Below, in pieces: positions 1,217-6,756 of a stretch of DNA of 64,000 nucleotides. Within the stretch, counting starts at the first letter, position 1. Each line of letters starts with the position of its first letter. The notes under the pieces are model-generated. The model was not told where the DNA came from, searched no databases, and worked only from the letters and a program-made list of their open reading frames with translations. The stretch covers positions 325,200 through 389,199 of the forward strand of contig CBDBPS010000002.1 of assembly GCA_965208885.1 (NCBI GenBank). Direction: 5' to 3'. A program made the translations under genes and the position numbers. The DNA comes from Dehalococcoidia bacterium. GTDB lineage: Bacteria > Chloroflexota > Dehalococcoidia > UBA2979.

Positions 1217-1834
1217 ATGACATACGAATCAGACATCGAAGAGCGCGGCCCCGAGGTCTCCATGACGGAGCCCGCCATCGACCGCCTCAAGAACCTCATC
1301 GCCAACGCCGGCGACCCGCCCGTCTCGGGCATCCGCCTCCAGATCACCAAGCGCAGTGCGCACGGCTTCGAGCACCTGCTCTCCATGGTCGACGCCGGAC
1401 GCGAGCCCGAGGAGGACTACGAGCTCGACTTCGACGGGCTCGCCCTCTTTGTCGAGGGCGCAAACGCGGAGTACCTCGATGGCATCTCGGTGCACTGGGA
1501 GTACAAGGGCGAGGGCGTCAACGGCTTCGACTTCGACAACCCGAACCCGCCCTGGCGCGACCCGCTGGCGATGCAGATCCAGCACCTCTTCGACACGAGC
1601 ATCAACCCCGGCATCGCCTCCCACGGGGGCTTCGTCGACCTGCTCGGTGTCGAGGGCAAGGTGGCCTACATCCAGCTTGGCGGCGGCTGCCAGGGCTGCG
1701 GCCTCGCCGACGTGACGCTCAAGCAGGGCATCGCCGTCGCCATCAAGGAAGCTGTGCCCGAGATCGAGGAGGTCGCCGACGCGACCGACCACGAGGCCGG
1801 CACGAACCCCTACTTCCAGCCCTCGAAGAAGTAG
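1217..1834 (+). CDS. nfuA: NfuA-type Fe-S cluster carrier (degenerate A-type domain plus NifU-C domain)
   Basis: INPGIASHGG...LGGGCQGCG...TLKQGI...DATDH..G.NPYF motifs. Confidence 0.88.
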   Translation: MTYESDIEERGPEVSMTEPAIDRLKNLIANAGDPPVSGIRLQITKRSAHGFEHLLSMVDAGREPEEDYELDFDGLALFVEGANAEYLDGISVHWEYKGEGVNGFDFDNPNPPWRDPLAMQIQHLFDTSINPGIASHGGFVDLLGVEGKVAYIQLGGGCQGCGLADVTLKQGIAVAIKEAVPEIEEVADATDHEAGTNPYFQPSKK

Positions 1835-3282
1835 TGCCCGACGGCCCCGCGGCATCCCCGCACGCCCCGGCGGCGCGTGTCCTGCTGCTCTCGACGTATG
1901 AGATGGGGCACCAGCCGCTCAGCCTGGCCGCACCCGCAGCAGCGCTGCGCGCACGCGGCCACAACGTCGACGTGCTCGACCTCGCCGTCGACCCGCTCGA
2001 CGAGGCGCGCGTGCGAGCGGCCGACCTGATCGCGCTGTCGATCCCGATGCACACCGCCTCGAGGCTCGCGCTGCAGCTCGTGCCGCGGCTGCGAGCGTTG
2101 CGGCCGGATGCCACGATCGTGCTCTACGGCCTGTACGCCGGGCTGCTCGGCGACCTCCGCATGAGCGGCGTCGTCGATGCGGTCGCGGGTGGCGAGTACG
2201 AGCCGGCCCTGTGCGACCTCGCCGACCGCGTCGCGGCCGACAGCGGCATCGATGGTCCGCTCTTGCCCGACGCCGCATTCGCGCGACAGGACTACCCCGT
2301 CCCCGACCGCGCCGGCCTGCCGTCCCTCGACCGCTACGCGCAGCTCCAGACCGCGGACGGGTTCGCCATTGCGGGCTACGTCGAGGCGACGCGGGGTTGC
2401 GCACACCAGTGCCTGCACTGTCCCGTCACCGCCGCCTATGACGGGCGGCTGCGCCTCGTCGCCCCCGAGACGGTGCTCGCCGACATCGACCAGCAGGTGG
2501 AGGGCGGCGCCGAGCACATCACGTTCGGCGATCCCGACTTCCTCAACGCCGTGCCACACTCGCTCGCGATCACCGAGGGGCTGCACGAGCGTCACCCGTC
2601 GCTGAGCTTCGACATCACGACGAAGGTCGAACACCTCCTCGAGCACGCCGACGTGCTCCCGCGGCTGCGCGAGCTCGGATGCCTGTTCGTGACCTCGGCG
2701 TTCGAGGCGACGAGCGACGAGGTGCTCCGTGAACTCGACAAGGGCCACACCGCCGCAGACCTCGTCCCCGCCATCGAGGCGTGCGAGGCCGCCGACCTCG
2801 CGATGCGCCCGACGTGGATGACGTTCACGCCGTGGACCACGGCCGAGGACCTCGCCGACATGCTCGCGTTCATCGAGGCGCATGGGCTCGTCGAGCGCGT
2901 GCCGCCGGTGCAGTACGGGCTCAGGCTGCTGCTGCCGCCGGGCTCGCCGCTGATCGCGCCGATCCACGCGCAGGGCCTCCTCGGCGACTACGACGCCGAG
3001 ACGCTCACGTACGAGTGGCGCCCACTCGACGAGCGCGTCGACCCGCTACAGCGCACCATCGCCGACCTCGTGGCCGAGCAGCACACCGACATCCACGCGG
3101 GCCACGCCCGCACGTTCAGCCTCGTGCGCGATGCGATCCTCGAGGTCACCGGGCAGCCGGCTCCCGCGACGGCCGCGCCGCCACGCGTCCTCCCGGCAAC
3201 GCCGGGGCTCACGGAGAGCTGGTTCTGCTGAGCGGAGCCCACCGCGAAGCAGTCTGCTTCGCTCGACCTCATCACCCTCTAG
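1834..3282 (+). CDS. B12-binding-like radical SAM protein with CUAEP tail; probable selenoprotein (Sec at TGA 3229-3231)
   Basis: GTG start overlaps the nfuA stop; N-terminal GHQPLSLA..ALRARGH cobalamin-binding-like domain; RGCAHQCLHC (CxxxCxxC); frame reads ESWFC-TGA-AEPTAKQSASLDLITL-TAG. Confidence 0.85.
3244..3262 (+). promoter_or_regulatory. Putative bacterial SECIS hairpin
   Basis: GCGAAGCA-GTC-TGCTTCGC is a perfect 8-bp stem starting 12 nt after the in-frame TGA, with a G-containing apical loop. Confidence 0.7.
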
Positions 3283-3305: not shown

Positions 3306-3665
3306 CTACTCCGCCGGCGGCGTCTCCTCGTGGACGATGCCGACGACGTTGCCCGCGGGGTCCGCGAAGAGCGCCATAGTGACCATGCCGGGGATCGTCG
3401 TGATCTCCTGTACGACCTGGCCGCCGAGCGCCGTCACGCGGTCGAGGTATGCCTGCAGGTCGTTGACCTCGATGTAGATGGTGACGCCGGACTGCTCGGC
3501 GGCCGTGATGCCGCCGCCGATGCTCGTCTCCGTCTGCGGTTCGACGAGGCCGTACGCCATCGGGTTCTCGGCGTTGACCTCCCAGTCGAAGGCCTGGGCG
3601 TAGAACTGCTGCAGCGCGCCGCCGTCCTCGCCTGCGATATCAAAGTGCACGATGGGATTGGGCAT
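3306..3665 (-). CDS. VOC/glyoxalase family protein
   Basis: MPNPIVHFDI...FYAQAFDW...YIEVNDL...GG...ALFADPAGNVVGI. Confidence 0.85.
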   Translation of the reverse strand: MPNPIVHFDIAGEDGGALQQFYAQAFDWEVNAENPMAYGLVEPQTETSIGGGITAAEQSGVTIYIEVNDLQAYLDRVTALGGQVVQEITTIPGMVTMALFADPAGNVVGIVHEETPPAE

Positions 3666-4277: not shown

Positions 4278-5576
4278 CTACGAGAGCGCGCGCGGCGCCT
4301 CCGCTCCCTGCTCGAACGCGAGTGCCGCAGCCCCATCGCGATCGTCGACGATGTCGATGCGCAGCAGCGCGTGAGCCTCGCGCAGCACTGCCTCGACGTC
4401 CCCGGGCTGTCCGCCTCGCGCGAAGATGAAGCCGAGGTACTCGCTGCCCTCGGGGAGTGGCGTCACAGCGTGACCCAGCGGGATCGTGATAGCGATGCCG
4501 GCGACGCCCGTGACGGCGCGCGCCGCAGCGAGTCCCTCGACGCGCCGCAGACGGCCCGCGCGCGGAATCGGGATCATCATCACGCCGGACGCCGCGCTCG
4601 TCCGCTCGATGCTGGTCGCGGGGGCGCCCACCGCGTGACTCAGCAGCAGTTCTTCGAGGCTGACCCCGGCGCCGAACCGCAGCGTCCGCGAACACAGGCC
4701 GCCGATGCTCCTCGCGGCGATGTCGACCGGCCAGACGCCCTCGTCGTTGATGCGCACCTCGGCGTGCAGGGGTCCATCGCGCAGCCCGAGCGCGCGTGCC
4801 GCGTCGGCGGCGGTCCGGCGGACCTCCTTCTGCCGCTCGGGCGAGAGCCGCGAGGGCGTCACGTAGATCGTCTCCTCGAAGTACGGGCCCACGAGTGGGT
4901 CGGGCTTGTCGAAGATGGCGAGCACATCGAGCTCGCCGTCGGTGAGCAGGCCTTCGACGGAGACCTCCTCGCCGGGAATGTAGCCCTCGATGAGCACGCG
5001 GTCGTCAGTGCCCATGCACTCGCCTGCGACCGCGGGGTCGCTGAGGAGCGCACGCAGCCGCTCGAACGCTGCGACGAACTCGGTCTCGTCGTTAGCTCGG
5101 ATCACGCCGCGGCTGGCGGACAGCGAGAGCGGCTTCACAACGCAAGGGAGCGGCGCCTCGGCGGCTATGGCGCGCGGATCCGCGTCGACCGGTGCGACCA
5201 TCCACGGCGGCGAGAGCACCCCGCCTGCCTCGAGCCGTTCACGCAGCAGCGACTTGTCGCGGGTCCCCGCCACGGCGTCGACGGTGTTGTGCGGCAGGCC
5301 CAGGCGCTCGGATGCGCGCGCAGCTGCCAGCGTTCCGGCGTCGTCGACCGCGACGATAGCGGCGAGGGGTCGCTCGGTCGCGAACGCCTCGATGGCGTCG
5401 GCAGCGGCGTCCGCATTGCCGAGCGGCAGCGCGACCGTGGCGCCGGGCAGGAATGACTCGACGGCCGACCGCTCATCCGAGCCCACCACCACGTCCACGT
5501 CGAGTTGCGCAGCAGCGGCCATGAAGTCGGGCGCGCGGTAGCTGGCGCTGGGGATCAGCAGGAGCACGCGTGCCAT
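4278..5576 (-). CDS. ATP-grasp domain protein
   Basis: Start MARVLLLIPSASYRA after GGAGG; RDKSLLRERL, VVKPLSLSASRGV, IEGYIPGEEVSVEG, GPLHAEVR. Confidence 0.85.
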   Translation of the reverse strand: MARVLLLIPSASYRAPDFMAAAAQLDVDVVVGSDERSAVESFLPGATVALPLGNADAAADAIEAFATERPLAAIVAVDDAGTLAAARASERLGLPHNTVDAVAGTRDKSLLRERLEAGGVLSPPWMVAPVDADPRAIAAEAPLPCVVKPLSLSASRGVIRANDETEFVAAFERLRALLSDPAVAGECMGTDDRVLIEGYIPGEEVSVEGLLTDGELDVLAIFDKPDPLVGPYFEETIYVTPSRLSPERQKEVRRTAADAARALGLRDGPLHAEVRINDEGVWPVDIAARSIGGLCSRTLRFGAGVSLEELLLSHAVGAPATSIERTSAASGVMMIPIPRAGRLRRVEGLAAARAVTGVAGIAITIPLGHAVTPLPEGSEYLGFIFARGGQPGDVEAVLREAHALLRIDIVDDRDGAAALAFEQGAEAPRALS

Positions 5577-5645
5577 CGGGCCTCCGGTAGTGGTTGTCGG
5601 CCTCGGTAGCATCGATTGTAGCCGCACGGTCGAGGGAGCACCGCG

Positions 5646-6368
5646 ATGCTGCAGGCCCGCACCCACATTGGGCTCGTGCGCGCGACGAACCAGGACATCG
5701 CGCTCGCCGAGCGGCTGCCCGACGGCAGCAGCTTGCTGGTGGCCGCCGACGGCGTCGGTGGCATCCCGGGCGGCGCGGTCGCCTCGCGCACCGCCGTCGA
5801 CGCGCTCGCCGAGGCGCTGCGCGCGGCCGGCGACGAACCACCCGACGCGGCGCTGCGGCGGGCGTCCGCGGCAGCGAACGACGCGGTGCGCGCGAGGCAG
5901 CAAGGCGACCTCGCCCGCATGAGTACGACGCTGGTCGCCGCACTCATCCACGACGCCACCGCGTGGGTCGCCAACATCGGGGACAGCCGTGCGTACCTCG
6001 TGGCCGACGGCGGGGCGCGCCAACTGACGCTCGACCACTCGTGGGTAGAGGAAGGGATCCGCTCGGGTGAGCTCGCGCCGGACGACCCGTTGGTCGCGCT
6101 CAACCGCCACGTGATCACGCGCGCTATCGGCCTCGACGCCGACGCGCAGATCGACGTCTTCGGACCCATCGACGTGGCTCCCGGCAGCGTGCTGGTGCTG
6201 TGCACCGACGGCCTTCACGGCGTCCTCGACGACCGGGCTATCGCCGATGTGATCGCCGCGTCCGGGGGCGACTACGCGAGCGACCTGATCGACGTGCTGC
6301 TGGCGGCGGGCGCGCCGGACAACATCGGAGTTGCCGTCCTCGCAACGCGGCCAGGTAGGCGGACGTGA
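5646..6368 (+). CDS. PP2C-family Ser/Thr protein phosphatase
   Basis: R..NQD, VAADGVGG, NIGDSRAY, DHS, LCTDGL, DN motifs. Confidence 0.9.
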   Translation: MLQARTHIGLVRATNQDIALAERLPDGSSLLVAADGVGGIPGGAVASRTAVDALAEALRAAGDEPPDAALRRASAAANDAVRARQQGDLARMSTTLVAALIHDATAWVANIGDSRAYLVADGGARQLTLDHSWVEEGIRSGELAPDDPLVALNRHVITRAIGLDADAQIDVFGPIDVAPGSVLVLCTDGLHGVLDDRAIADVIAASGGDYASDLIDVLLAAGAPDNIGVAVLATRPGRRT

Positions 6369-6435
6369 TCCACGGGCTTGTCGTAGTACAGTGCCGACAA
6401 TCGATTTCACCCAGACACCCGCACGAGGAGAAGAG

Positions 6436-6756
6436 ATGCCCAAGTACCTGGTCAAGGCTTCGTACAATCCTGCCGGAGCGCAGGGACTGCTCGCGGAAGG
6501 CGGCTCAGCGCGCCGCGACGCCCTCACCGCCTCGATCGAGTCGGTCGGCGGGTCCGTCGACACGTTCCTGTACGCCTTCGGCGGCGACGACCTCTACATC
6601 GTCATGGACGTGCCCGACAACGCATCGGCCGCGGCGCTTGGCCTCGCTATCGGCGCGGCGGGCGCGATCACCTGGAACACCACGGTGATGCTGACGCCCG
6701 AGGAGATCGACGAAGCCGCCGGGAAGTCCATCACCTACCGCGCGCCCGGCGCGTAG
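6436..6756 (+). CDS. GYD domain-containing protein
   Basis: MPKYLVKASY..G..GLL.EGGSAR...SVGG...YAFG.DD; RBS GAGGAG. Confidence 0.8.
   Translation: MPKYLVKASYNPAGAQGLLAEGGSARRDALTASIESVGGSVDTFLYAFGGDDLYIVMDVPDNASAAALGLAIGAAGAITWNTTVMLTPEEIDEAAGKSITYRAPGA

What the first reader, a model, noticed from the sequence alone, without database searches (positions are those of the whole stretch)
1834..3282. Hidden selenoprotein: B12-type radical SAM enzyme with a Cys-Sec-Ala-Glu-Pro tail and SECIS-like hairpin
Seen: the ORF track stops at ...ESWFC-TGA (3229-3231), but the frame continues AEPTAKQSASLDLITL-TAG (3282). A perfect 8-bp hairpin GCGAAGCA-GTC-TGCTTCGC starts 12 nt after the TGA. Known: bacterial SECIS elements lie just 3' of the Sec codon, and the E. 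coli fdhF apical stem-loop (GCAGGUCUGC) is similar. A CUAEP/CCAEP-tail radical SAM family has been named, and to my knowledge it has no established reaction. Inference: the product is 482 aa with a vicinal Cys-Sec pair that binds a metal(loid) or acts in redox. Cys-rich tails on arsenic-handling radical SAM enzymes such as ArsL are a possible analogy.
Basis: partly seen in the sequence, partly recalled or inferred. Interest (0 to 1): 0.88.

Follow-up and report, generated by a model that had tools for sequence, protein, structure and literature searches.

The report
Known selenoprotein radical SAM enzyme, ArsL-like
The gene is a true selenocysteine-containing member of an already named but uncharacterised radical SAM family, a sister of the arsenic-carbon bond-forming enzyme ArsL, and it is inherited together with an amino-acid ligase gene that hints at what it makes.

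Summary
The frame 1834-3231 ends ...WFC-TGA and continues AEPTAKQSASLDLITL-TAG (3282). The hairpin sits at 3244-3262.

The protein scores 581 bits on NCBIfam NF040546, "CUAEP/CCAEP-tail radical SAM (seleno)protein" (cut-off 500). That family was already named as an uncharacterised selenoprotein by Haft and Gladyshev (bioRxiv 2022).

- **Sec machinery:** the genome has selA, selB, a Sec-containing selD and tRNA-Sec.
- **Homologues:** of 80 loci from many phyla, 53 read C-TGA-AEP, 26 read CCAEP and one reads TGA-Cys.
- **SECIS:** the hairpin covaries. It holds at least 5 bp in a fixed register in 42 of 51 Sec forms and 4 of 26 Cys forms.

Found here and not in print in my searches:

- An L-amino-acid-ligase-type ATP-grasp gene (window 4278-5576, minus strand) lies within 4 kb in 37 of 46 well-flanked loci. 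It is present in exactly the 12 of 41 related genomes that hold the enzyme.
- Nfu/NfuA, YggX and SaoD-like genes also recur nearby.
- ArsL-family clusters on Firmicute plasmids carry the same kind of ligase.

My reading is an ArsL-like enzyme whose flexible Cys-Sec tail presents a soft atom, or reducing power, to the active site. Its amino-acid product is then ligated. The reaction itself is untested.

The parts
1217..1834 (+). NfuA-like Fe-S carrier gene (205 aa; degenerate A-type domain plus Nfu domain). Its stop overlaps the start of the radical SAM gene.
   Evidence: Pfam NifU 69.6 bits and Fe-S_biosyn 26.7 bits. NCBIfam NfuA 107 bits, below its cut-off of 269. Directly upstream in 11 of 12 loci from related genomes. 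An Nfu-type gene lies within 4 kb in 36 of 81 loci. Not exclusive to the enzyme: found in 23 of 41 related genomes, 11 of which lack the radical SAM gene.
1834..3282 (+). Radical SAM selenoprotein gene of family NF040546 (482 aa with Sec466): B12-binding-like N-domain, radical SAM core, C-terminal tail.
   Evidence: NF040546 581.2 bits against a cut-off of 500, residues 16-475 on profile positions 1-467 of 468. Pfam B12-binding 43.5 bits and Radical_SAM 48.6 bits. AlphaFold2 model with mean pLDDT 88.2 and pTM 0.89.
2398..2421 (+). CxxxCxxC motif (C189, C193, C196; GCAHQCLHCP) for the radical SAM [4Fe-4S] cluster.
   Evidence: Invariant in 119 of 119 aligned family proteins. The only other invariant Cys is C465.
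3226..3231 (+). TGC-TGA: the vicinal Cys465-Sec466 pair. The TGA at 3229-3231 is the Sec codon.
   Evidence: The TGA aligns with Cys in CCAEP homologues. 11 of the 12 family members in related genomes carry one in-frame TGA.
3232..3282 (+). Read-through tail AEPTAKQSASLDLITL plus the TAG stop.
   Evidence: AEPT..Q is conserved after the TGA or TGC across phyla. The NF040546 profile extends to residue 475. pLDDT in the tail is 37-71, so it is probably flexible.
3244..3262 (+). SECIS-type hairpin. In the family register it is a 7-bp stem (3244-3250 with 3256-3262) and loop AGUCU; here an extra A-U pair makes it 8 bp with a GUC loop.
   Evidence: -10.8 kcal/mol. In a fixed register, 42 of 51 Sec forms and 4 of 26 Cys forms hold at least 5 bp. 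Covariation: 90.2% of cells paired against 69.4% in shuffles (0 of 500 shuffles reach it), and 6 of 7 pairs show changes on both sides.
4278..5576 (-). L-amino-acid-ligase-type ATP-grasp gene (432 aa), convergent with the radical SAM gene. The mechanical ORF 4278-6563 is over-long.
   Evidence: Pfam ATPgrasp_N, ATP-grasp_4 and LAL_C2. Translation. Profile match at G000:C2:329543-330775 with E = 2.7e-179; strong matches occur in exactly the 12 of 41 related genomes that hold the radical SAM gene. Within 4 kb in 37 of 46 loci that have at least 4 kb on both sides. Closest solved relatives are BL00235 (E = 7.9e-35) and BacD.

Best explanation
SHOWN. Window 1834-3282 encodes a full-length 482-residue member of NCBIfam NF040546. 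The TGA at 3229-3231 is read as selenocysteine. The read-through is directed by a hairpin 12 nt downstream, whose loop is built on the conserved Gln codon (CAG followed by U). The organism, a high-GC Chloroflexota by the names of its closest homologues, has the complete Sec machinery. The gene forms a co-inherited pair with an L-amino-acid-ligase-type ATP-grasp gene. An NfuA-like Fe-S carrier gene is translationally coupled upstream.

INFERRED, about 0.35-0.4 for the specific chemistry. The enzyme works like its sister ArsL. The single [4Fe-4S] cluster cleaves SAM, probably at the C-gamma-S bond, giving methylthioadenosine and a 3-amino-3-carboxypropyl (ACP) unit. The flexible Cys-Sec (or Cys-Cys) tail holds a soft atom and swings it into the active site to receive that unit. 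The candidates for this atom are a chalcogen such as a persulfide sulfur, or a metal(loid). Arsenic is unlikely because no ars genes accompany the family. The methionine- or homocysteine-like amino acid that results is then joined to a second amino acid by the ligase. Nfu/NfuA and YggX keep the oxygen-sensitive cluster supplied. Sec in place of Cys gives a better nucleophile or ligand and is not essential, since a third of homologues use Cys.
For: Selenoprotein status
- Family score 581.2 bits against a cut-off of 500, with the profile running past the TGA.
- selA 531 bits; selB 299 bits; selD 365 bits with Sec in SCGGUAGK; tRNA-Sec by ARAGORN and Rfam, 73.7 bits.
- 11 of 12 family members in 41 related genomes carry one in-frame TGA and one has Cys. 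All 11 Sec-form holders have selA.
- Of the best 120 database homologues, 86 end at W-x-C, 33 read CCAEP and 1 is partial.
- 80 loci from many phyla give 53 CU, 26 CC and 1 UC.
- The selD gene of the same genome has a similar GCAG-GUC-CUGC apical hairpin.

ArsL kinship
- 304.6 bits on NF040542.
- 36% identity over residues 15-405 to a Bacillus cereus RCCLKC-tail protein, E = 7e-83.
- Both families have only the three cluster cysteines plus a Cys-rich C-terminal tail.
- ArsL's tail binds As(III) and is needed for C-As bond formation but not for SAM cleavage (10.1101/2024.02.01.577332, passages; 10.64898/2026.04.29.721666, sections 6 and 11).
- An ArsL variant keeping only the vicinal CC pair is fully active (PMC13598754, passage).

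Ligase partner. BL00235 makes Met-Gly and Met-Met (PMC6920838, Table 2 passage). ArsL-family clusters in Bacillus, Priestia and Alicyclobacillus plasmids also hold a ligase of the same three-domain type.

Fe-S helpers and SaoD-like neighbours.
Against: - No experiment or computation here shows which SAM bond is cut, what the tail binds, or what the ligase joins.
- The tail has two soft ligands, not ArsL's three.
- No ars, methyltransferase or transporter genes recur near the family.
- The ATP-grasp proteins of the two families are only 24% identical (E = 5e-18), so their pairing with the radical SAM genes may have arisen independently.
- The ligase and the enzyme are neighbours, so their shared presence and absence partly reflects joint gain and loss of one DNA segment.
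- The NfuA-like gene is single-copy in all 19 genomes of the genus, 11 of which lack the enzyme. It is therefore not dedicated to the enzyme.
- Nine of the 46 well-flanked loci have no ligase within 4 kb. Three of those (L032, L033, L058) have none of the five recurring partners. The Thermomicrobium roseum locus also has no ligase.
- An unconstrained search for the best hairpin does not separate Sec from Cys forms (mean -12.3 against -14.9 kcal/mol, p = 0.89). Only the fixed-register test does.
- The 38 sequences used for covariation were those whose better register had a 5-nt loop, which is a mild selection. Related sequences are not independent.
Confidence: 0.55

Rival explanations
1. Canonical radical SAM chemistry with a redox tail. 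The enzyme makes the 5'-deoxyadenosyl radical and acts on an amino acid or on the ligase's dipeptide. The Cys-Sec pair on the flexible tail serves as an electron or hydrogen-atom donor, cycling through a selenenylsulfide. This would work like the C-terminal Gly-Cys-Sec-Gly arm of mammalian thioredoxin reductase (recalled, not from a call).
For: - Sec/Cys interchange at a vicinal pair on a low-confidence, probably mobile tail.
- One homologue has the order Sec-Cys (L069), which fits a pair acting as a unit.
- The closest solved fold is AprD4, a canonical 5'-dA-radical enzyme (TM 0.67).
- No metal(loid) resistance or transport genes recur nearby.
Against: - The nearest characterised sequence relative is ArsL. 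Its tail is a substrate-binding site, not a redox arm.
- SaoD/DsrE-family neighbours occur in 10 of 81 loci. Thermogemmatispora tails carry extra CC pairs. Both fit atom handling better than redox.
Confidence: 0.28
2. A cobalamin-dependent (class B) radical SAM methyltransferase, in which the tail is only a regulatory or substrate-anchoring extension.
For: - Pfam B12-binding domain at 43.5 bits against a cut-off of 32.1.
- Foldseek matches to TsrM, OxsB, CysS, MgmA and TokK, with E-values from 8.5e-16 to 2.8e-13.
Against: - The best structural match is AprD4, which as I recall carries no cobalamin.
- The preprint on the sister enzyme ArsL does not mention cobalamin or B12 at all (0 occurrences).
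- The invariance of the tail's Cys-Cys/Sec pair is left unexplained.
Confidence: 0.08
3. Selenium is the substrate. The tail carries selenium from selenophosphate, and the enzyme makes a seleno-amino acid such as selenohomocysteine.
For: - 15 of 26 genomes with the Cys form still have selD above its cut-off.
- The family is common in lineages that use selenium: selA in 34 of 41 relatives.
Against: - 11 of 26 Cys-form genomes show no selD above its cut-off. One is a 10.8-Mb Nonomuraea genome (G049). Several of the other ten may be incomplete metagenome bins.
- No selD or other selenium gene recurs in the neighbourhood.
Confidence: 0.06
4. The TGA is a real stop. The product is 465 residues ending in WFC, and the downstream similarity is a relic.
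For: Deposited gene calls stop there. The single-sequence fold is unremarkable.
Against: - The tail is conserved as protein (AEPT..Q) across many phyla, and TGA alternates with TGC.
- The hairpin covaries and is largely missing from Cys forms.
- Sec forms use only CAG among Gln codons, while Cys forms also use CAA (CAA in 0 of 51 against 5 of 26).
- The Sec machinery is complete.
Confidence: 0.03

Closest known systems
NCBIfam NF040546, CUAEP/CCAEP-tail radical SAM (seleno)protein (mentioned by Haft and Gladyshev, bioRxiv 10.1101/2022.07.06.499078)
   Same: Member by score, by architecture and by the C-U-A-E-P tail. The paper lists the family among the few selenoproteins with a CU motif and calls its structure and function 'not well known' (passage).
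   Different: Nothing differs; this is one more member. Added here and not in that passage: a SECIS consensus, counts of Sec and Cys forms, and the ligase, Nfu, YggX and SaoD-like gene partners.
ArsL, arsinothricin biosynthesis radical SAM protein (NF040542, RCCLKC tail)
   Same: Same two-domain architecture and one CxxxCxxC motif. 36% identity over about 390 residues. A Cys-rich tail sits at the same end. A ligase-type ATP-grasp gene lies in the cluster in three Firmicute genera.
   Different: Below the ArsL cut-off (304.6 against 450). The tail is C-U/C-A-E-P-T-x-x-Q instead of R-C-C-L-K-C, so it has two soft ligands, not three. No arsM, arsN, ACR3 or aquaporin genes lie nearby, whereas ArsL clusters have them. 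ArsL itself is not known as a selenoprotein.
Bacterial SECIS of Escherichia coli fdhF (recalled, not from a call)
   Same: A hairpin a short distance 3' of the UGA, inside the coding region, with G and U in the apical loop.
   Different: The loop consensus here is AGU(U/C)N closed by C-G. I saw no conserved bulged U. No Rfam model matches. bSECISearch could not be run.
AprD4 and class B radical SAM enzymes (TsrM, OxsB, CysS, TokK, MgmA)
   Same: Rossmann-like N-domain plus a partial TIM barrel. Foldseek E-values from 1e-16 to 2.8e-13; TM 0.67 to AprD4.
   Different: Only 14-18% identity. None of them has a Cys-Sec tail. Cobalamin use is unknown for this family.
L-amino acid ligases BL00235 and BacD (for the partner gene)
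   Same: Three-domain ligase architecture. E = 7.9e-35 to BL00235 and about 1e-16 to BacD.
   Different: Scores lie far below every NCBIfam equivalog cut-off. The substrates are unknown.

Membership tests
NF040546 CUAEP/CCAEP-tail radical SAM (seleno)protein | Whole-protein HMM score at or above the curated cut-off (500 bits) | tested here: met
   581.2 bits, E = 1.5e-174, profile positions 1-467 of 468.
NF040546 CUAEP/CCAEP-tail radical SAM (seleno)protein | C-terminal C-[U/C]-A-E-P motif | tested here: met
   WFC-U-AEPT at residues 463-470. The same motif is present in all 12 related loci.
NF040546 CUAEP/CCAEP-tail radical SAM (seleno)protein | B12-binding-like domain plus a radical SAM core with CxxxCxxC | tested here: met
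   Pfam PF02310 and PF04055. C189, C193 and C196 are invariant.
Bacterial selenoprotein | In-frame UGA aligned with Cys in homologues, with conserved protein sequence downstream | tested here: met
   53 CU, 26 CC and 1 UC of 80 loci. 86 truncated and 33 CCAEP of 120 database proteins.
Bacterial selenoprotein | SECIS stem-loop shortly 3' of the UGA | tested here: met
   Fixed-register stem in 42 of 51 Sec forms against 4 of 26 Cys forms. Covariation. No Rfam match. bSECISearch was not available.
Bacterial selenoprotein | selA, selB, selC and selD in the genome | tested here: met
   The genes are scattered over both contigs.
Bacterial selenoprotein | Selenium actually incorporated at the UGA position | not testable with these tools
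   Needs 75Se labelling or mass spectrometry.
ArsL (NF040542) | HMM score at or above the cut-off (450 bits) | tested here: not met
   304.6 bits.
ArsL (NF040542) | RCCLKC tail with three cysteines that bind As(III) | tested here: not met
   The tail here is CUAEPT. True RCCLKC tails are shown.
ArsL (NF040542) | Arsenic gene context (arsM, arsN, arsenite transport) | tested here: not met
   None among the recurrent neighbours or the annotated own neighbours. Present in ArsL-family clusters.
ArsL (NF040542) | Cleavage of SAM to methylthioadenosine plus an ACP unit | not testable with these tools
   Needs an enzyme assay.
Cobalamin-dependent (class B) radical SAM | N-terminal cobalamin-binding-type domain | tested here: met
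   PF02310 at 43.5 bits. Fold matches.
Cobalamin-dependent (class B) radical SAM | Bound cobalamin used in catalysis | not testable with these tools
   The top fold match, AprD4, is to my recollection cobalamin-free, so fold alone does not decide.

The most novel reading that the evidence does not exclude
The radical SAM enzyme and its co-inherited L-amino-acid ligase form a widespread two-enzyme pathway. At least 580 matching stretches were found among species-representative genomes of Chloroflexota, Actinomycetota, Acidobacteriota, Gemmatimonadota and other phyla. In this reading the enzyme transfers the 3-amino-3-carboxypropyl group of SAM, ArsL-style, onto a chalcogen or metal(loid) atom held by the Cys-Sec tail. 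The resulting methionine-like amino acid is ligated into a dipeptide. That would be a second natural carbon-heteroatom bond-forming branch of noncanonical radical SAM chemistry and a new class of small metabolite.
Probability: 0.25. Interest if true: 0.8.

Novelty: already known. Interest (0 to 1): 0.4.

Why it matters
The selenoprotein itself is not news. The family name says '(seleno)protein', and near-identical proteins in public records already bear that name.

The value lies elsewhere.

- **Annotation:** this gene and most deposited relatives are truncated at WFC, so they lack the Sec and the conserved tail. This includes the copy in the cultured Thermomicrobium roseum DSM 5159.
- **Function:** the family is large and found in many phyla, it has no known reaction, and it is the sister of the only canonical-fold radical SAM enzyme known to cut SAM at the C-gamma-S bond.
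- **Testability:** the co-inherited ligase, the Fe-S helper genes and the parallel ligase in ArsL clusters turn 'unknown function' into specific assays. These are methylthioadenosine against 5'-deoxyadenosine, the atom bound to the tail, and the ligase's substrates.
- **Detection:** the SECIS consensus tied to a conserved Gln codon gives a simple rule for finding and correcting Sec forms.

Tried and rejected
- **Rfam SECIS models:** nothing beyond two chance matches (E = 3.6 and 6.2).
- **Single-sequence folding:** not significant.
- **Unconstrained best-hairpin comparison of Sec and Cys forms:** no difference (p = 0.89). It was confounded by terminators after the short Cys tails, so I replaced it with the fixed-register test.
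- **Glyoxalase-like gene at 3306-3665 (minus strand) as a partner:** rejected. It has only one weak relative among 81 loci (L100, about 4 kb away). One database protein (P0113) does carry a different VOC domain fused at its N-terminus.
- **'U126' and 'c13' neighbour clusters:** these are antisense shadow ORFs of the ligase gene in high-GC DNA.
- **Fused forms:** the search of longer proteins gave three hits. Their sequences show wrong-frame, Arg-rich or shifted stretches between the domains. I read them as frameshift or gene-calling artefacts, not true fusions.
- **In-frame stops reported inside the ligase match in three genomes:** these are simply the genes' own stop codons at the end of the match. 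The ligase is not a selenoprotein.
- **True ArsL in Gammaproteobacteria:** a search of 401 genomes found none above the cut-off. 17 had weaker matches with no in-frame stop, below the ArsL cut-off, and I did not inspect their tails. ArsL-family sequences came from plasmid records instead.
- **selA in Thermomicrobium roseum:** only the megaplasmid record could be searched and it has none. The chromosome was not examined, so this says nothing about the organism.
- **Solved structures by sequence:** only MgmA (9ccb) at E = 0.0015.
- **Literature:** 'CUAEP', 'CCAEP' and 'NF040546' each find one relevant paper, the same one. 'radical SAM' + 'selenoprotein' + 'ArsL' finds none. On these four searches I say the gene partnership is not in print. 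Subscription journals are not covered.
- **Not used:** Complex prediction, sequencing-run tools, the protein atlas and the representative search. None would have decided the open question.
- **Closed:** I did not consult the supplementary files of any paper.
Full report
**Observation.** The sequence is as described. A GTG at 1834 overlaps the TAG stop of the upstream gene. The frame reads to ...TESWFC, TGA (3229-3231), then AEPTAKQSASLDLITL and TAG (3280-3282). Twelve nucleotides after the TGA lies GCGAAGCA-GTC-TGCTTCGC (3244-3262), at -10.8 kcal/mol alone. The window's + strand has 33 perfect 8-bp hairpins in 64 kb, so the chance of one starting in a given 20-nt span is about 1%. On its own the region does not fold unusually well (z = -0.43). 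A competing stem is predicted in a 47-nt context. Rfam has no matching family. The case for a SECIS therefore rests on comparison with homologues.

**What the protein is.** With Sec read at the TGA, the 482-residue product scores 581.2 bits on NCBIfam NF040546, 'CUAEP/CCAEP-tail radical SAM (seleno)protein' (cut-off 500). The profile covers residues 16-475, so it runs across the TGA. Pfam finds a B12-binding domain and a Radical_SAM domain. The second-best NCBIfam model is ArsL (NF040542), at 304.6 bits and below its cut-off of 450. In the held literature the family appears in one paper, Haft and Gladyshev (bioRxiv 10.1101/2022.07.06.499078). I read passages only. It lists the family among the rare selenoproteins with a CU motif and calls it uncharacterised. 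The closest database homologues (84-93% identity) come from Chloroflexota metagenome bins. Several already carry the family name, yet they end at WFC.

**Sec machinery.** The 2.96-Mb, 69.5% GC genome holds four components:
- selA at C2:309871-311199, 531 bits, about 16 kb upstream of the gene;
- selB at C1:428426-430255, 299 bits;
- selD at C1:645341-646270, 365 bits, with one in-frame TGA that gives SCGGUAGK;
- tRNA-Sec at C2:1596453-1596549, found by ARAGORN and by Rfam RF01852 at 73.7 bits.

The selD TGA is followed by a hairpin GGCGCAG-GUC-CUGCGCC, whose apex resembles the one studied here.

**Homologues past the TGA.**
- Related genomes: 12 of 41 hold the family above its cut-off. Eleven have one in-frame TGA and one (G034) has none. 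All twelve continue C-[U/C]-AEPT..Q.A.LD. All eleven Sec-form holders have selA, as do 34 of the 41 genomes.
- Best 120 database proteins: 86 end at W-x-C, 33 contain CCAEP and one is partial.
580 of them encode a relative, and 80 loci were kept. They come from Chloroflexota, Actinomycetota, Acidobacteriota, Gemmatimonadota, Rokubacteria and other phyla, including cultured Thermogemmatispora, Dictyobacter, Nonomuraea and Actinopolyspora.
- Tails in those 80 loci: 53 C-TGA, 26 C-TGC and one TGA-TGC (L069). One search gave the first counts, and one search corrected two loci that my first parse had missed.

**SECIS.** There are no indels between the Sec codon and the conserved Gln codon, so a fixed register can be tested. 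The stem's last 5' base is the C of CAG, and the loop is AGUU or AGUUN.
- Stem: at least 5 contiguous pairs occur in 42 of 51 Sec forms and in 4 of 26 Cys forms (Fisher p = 1.5e-8). Related sequences are not independent, so this p-value overstates the case.
- Codon use: CAG followed by T occurs in 43 of 51 Sec forms against 8 of 26 Cys forms. The CAA Gln codon occurs in 0 of 51 against 5 of 26 (on the 77 loci parsed at that point).
- Covariation: I used 38 Sec-form sequences in the 5-nt-loop register, chosen because that register gave their longer stem, plus the window and three relatives. 90.2% of cells pair, against 69.4% in shuffles (0 of 500 reach the observed value) and 35-55% when the partner is slid. 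63 cells change on both sides against 25 expected, and 6 of 7 pairs show such changes.
- Negative result: an unconstrained best-hairpin comparison showed no difference.

**Architecture.** In 119 aligned family proteins the only invariant cysteines are C189, C193 and C196 (GCAHxCxHCP) and C465. Position 466 is Cys or the stop. There is no motif for an auxiliary cluster. The AlphaFold2 model is confident (pLDDT 88.2, pTM 0.89), except for the tail after about residue 450 (37-71). Foldseek ranks AprD4 first (TM 0.67), then TsrM, OxsB, CysS, MgmA, TokK and MiaB. By sequence no close relative has been solved.

**Kinship with ArsL.** A Bacillus cereus plasmid RCCLKC-tail protein is 36% identical over residues 15-405 (E = 7e-83). 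The two share the cluster motif region and many core motifs, and they differ in the tail. For ArsL the papers I read report the following:
- cleavage of SAM to methylthioadenosine and an ACP unit, and a tail that binds As(III) and is required for C-As bond formation but not for SAM cleavage (10.1101/2024.02.01.577332, passages);
- binding of arsenic by the three tail cysteines, and an Fe-C(ACP) organometallic species (10.64898/2026.04.29.721666, abstract and sections 6 and 11);
- full activity of a variant that retains only the vicinal CC pair (PMC13598754, passage).

**Gene partners.** I clustered the ORFs within 7 kb of the gene in the 80 loci plus the window's own.

| Partner | Identification | All loci | Loci with at least 4 kb on both sides |
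|---|---|---|---|
| L-amino-acid-ligase-type ATP-grasp | Pfam ATPgrasp_N + ATP-grasp_4 + LAL_C2 | 50 of 81 | 37 of 46 |
| Nfu or NfuA-like | tblastn with the window's own NfuA-like protein | 36 of 81 | 25 of 46 |
| YggX | PF04362; NF003817 above its cut-off | 18 of 81 | 12 of 46 |
| DUF169 | PF02596 | 11 of 81 | 6 of 46 |
| SaoD/DsrE family | NF040913, 198.6 bits against a cut-off of 152 | 10 of 81 | 6 of 46 (Cys-form loci only) |

- Haft and Gladyshev note that such SaoD relatives tend to sit beside metal-handling genes (passage).
- In the window the ligase is 4278-5576 on the minus strand.
- A profile of 30 partner ligases finds strong matches (E of 1e-176 or lower) in exactly the 12 related genomes that hold the radical SAM gene. 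The other 29 give only one weak hit. Within the genus, 8 of 19 genomes have both genes and 11 have neither.
- The NfuA-like gene is single-copy in all 19 genomes of the genus and in the four other holders, 23 of 41 in all. It is therefore associated with the enzyme but not dedicated to it.
- The ligase's closest solved relatives are BL00235 (E = 7.9e-35) and BacD. A review lists Met-Gly and Met-Met as BL00235 products (PMC6920838, passages).
- ArsL-family clusters on Bacillus cereus, Priestia and Alicyclobacillus plasmids also contain a ligase of the same three-domain type. It sits beside a CMD-family gene, a CobW-type GTPase and arsenic genes. The ligases of the two families are only 24% identical.

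**Is selenium the substrate?** Fifteen of the 26 genomes with the Cys form have selD above its cut-off and eleven do not. One of the eleven is a 10.8-Mb Nonomuraea genome (G049). Selenium is therefore not required for the enzyme to be kept.

**Mechanism.**
- Shown: a genuine Sec-decoding gene of a known family, its SECIS, the kinship with ArsL, and the co-inherited ligase.
- Inferred, most likely (about 0.35-0.4): ArsL-type transfer of the ACP unit from SAM to a soft atom presented by the Cys-Sec tail, followed by ligation of the methionine-like product. Nfu and YggX would support the cluster.
- Main rival (about 0.28): canonical 5'-dA-radical chemistry with the tail as a redox or hydrogen-donor arm.
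- The identity of the atom, the SAM bond that is cut and the ligase's substrates are all untested.

**Verdict.** The selenoprotein and its family are already known, so the finding itself is ordinary. The function remains open. The partner genes found here make it testable.

Noticed in passing
G000:C1:645341-646270 (outside the window; locus L124): The genome's selD is itself a selenoprotein (Sec in SCGGUAGK). Its hairpin GGCGCAG-GUC-CUGCGCC starts 26 nt after the UGA, and its apex resembles that of the radical SAM gene.
   Followed up: partly
L069:1299-2690: One homologue, from an uncultured Chloroflexi record, has the order reversed: WY-TGA-TGC-AEP (Sec-Cys instead of Cys-Sec).
   Followed up: no
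L115:7935-9470 (Thermomicrobium roseum DSM 5159 megaplasmid NC_011961.1): [quoted passage not shown] The frame continues TGA-AEPLEDPSGPV..., with a GGACCC-GUC-GGGUCC hairpin. This is a cultured organism with an apparently truncated Sec-form annotation. Its neighbours are an aminotransferase and an MFS transporter, with no ligase.
   Followed up: partly
L116:1441-2664, L117:2433-3665, L118:2632-3855: ArsL-family (RCCLKC-tail) clusters on Bacillus cereus, Alicyclobacillus and Priestia plasmids each carry a CMD-family gene directly followed by an L-amino-acid-ligase-type ATP-grasp gene. Each also has a CobW-type GTPase. This suggests that arsinothricin-type products may be ligated into peptides there.
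   Followed up: partly
L059 and L060 (Thermogemmatispora): The Cys-form tails are long and carry two further vicinal CC pairs (...GSCCGS...SGCCS...). L059 also keeps an 8-bp hairpin in the SECIS register, and both genomes have a Sec-containing selD. This may reflect a recent Sec-to-Cys change.
   Followed up: no
protein P0113 (615 aa, from the search for homologous proteins): A family member with an N-terminal glyoxalase/VOC domain (PF00903) fused in front of the radical SAM protein. It also ends at WFC.
   Followed up: no
window 4278-6563 (-) and 5646-6368 (+): The mechanical 761-aa ORF on the minus strand is over-long. Only its last 432 codons are the ligase. The rest overlaps a PP2C-type Ser/Thr phosphatase gene on the plus strand (NF033484, 186.7 bits, below its cut-off of 230).
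   Followed up: yes
G000:C2:309850-313603 (outside the window; locus L026): selA is followed by a MutS2 gene (834 bits) whose longest ORF overlaps the end of selA. selA lies 17-19 kb from the radical SAM gene in five genomes of the group (conserved synteny). selB, selD and tRNA-Sec lie elsewhere.
   Followed up: no
G065:C3:364910-366100 and G065:C3:1290281-1291474: A Gammaproteobacteria genome bin holds two copies that match the ArsL model below its cut-off and have no in-frame stop. One copy is the CCAEP locus L102.
   Followed up: no
G019: radical SAM gene on C46:8040-9419; NfuA-like and ligase genes on C78:14578-16469: In this related genome the NfuA-like and ligase genes are adjacent to each other, while the radical SAM gene lies on another contig.
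   Followed up: no
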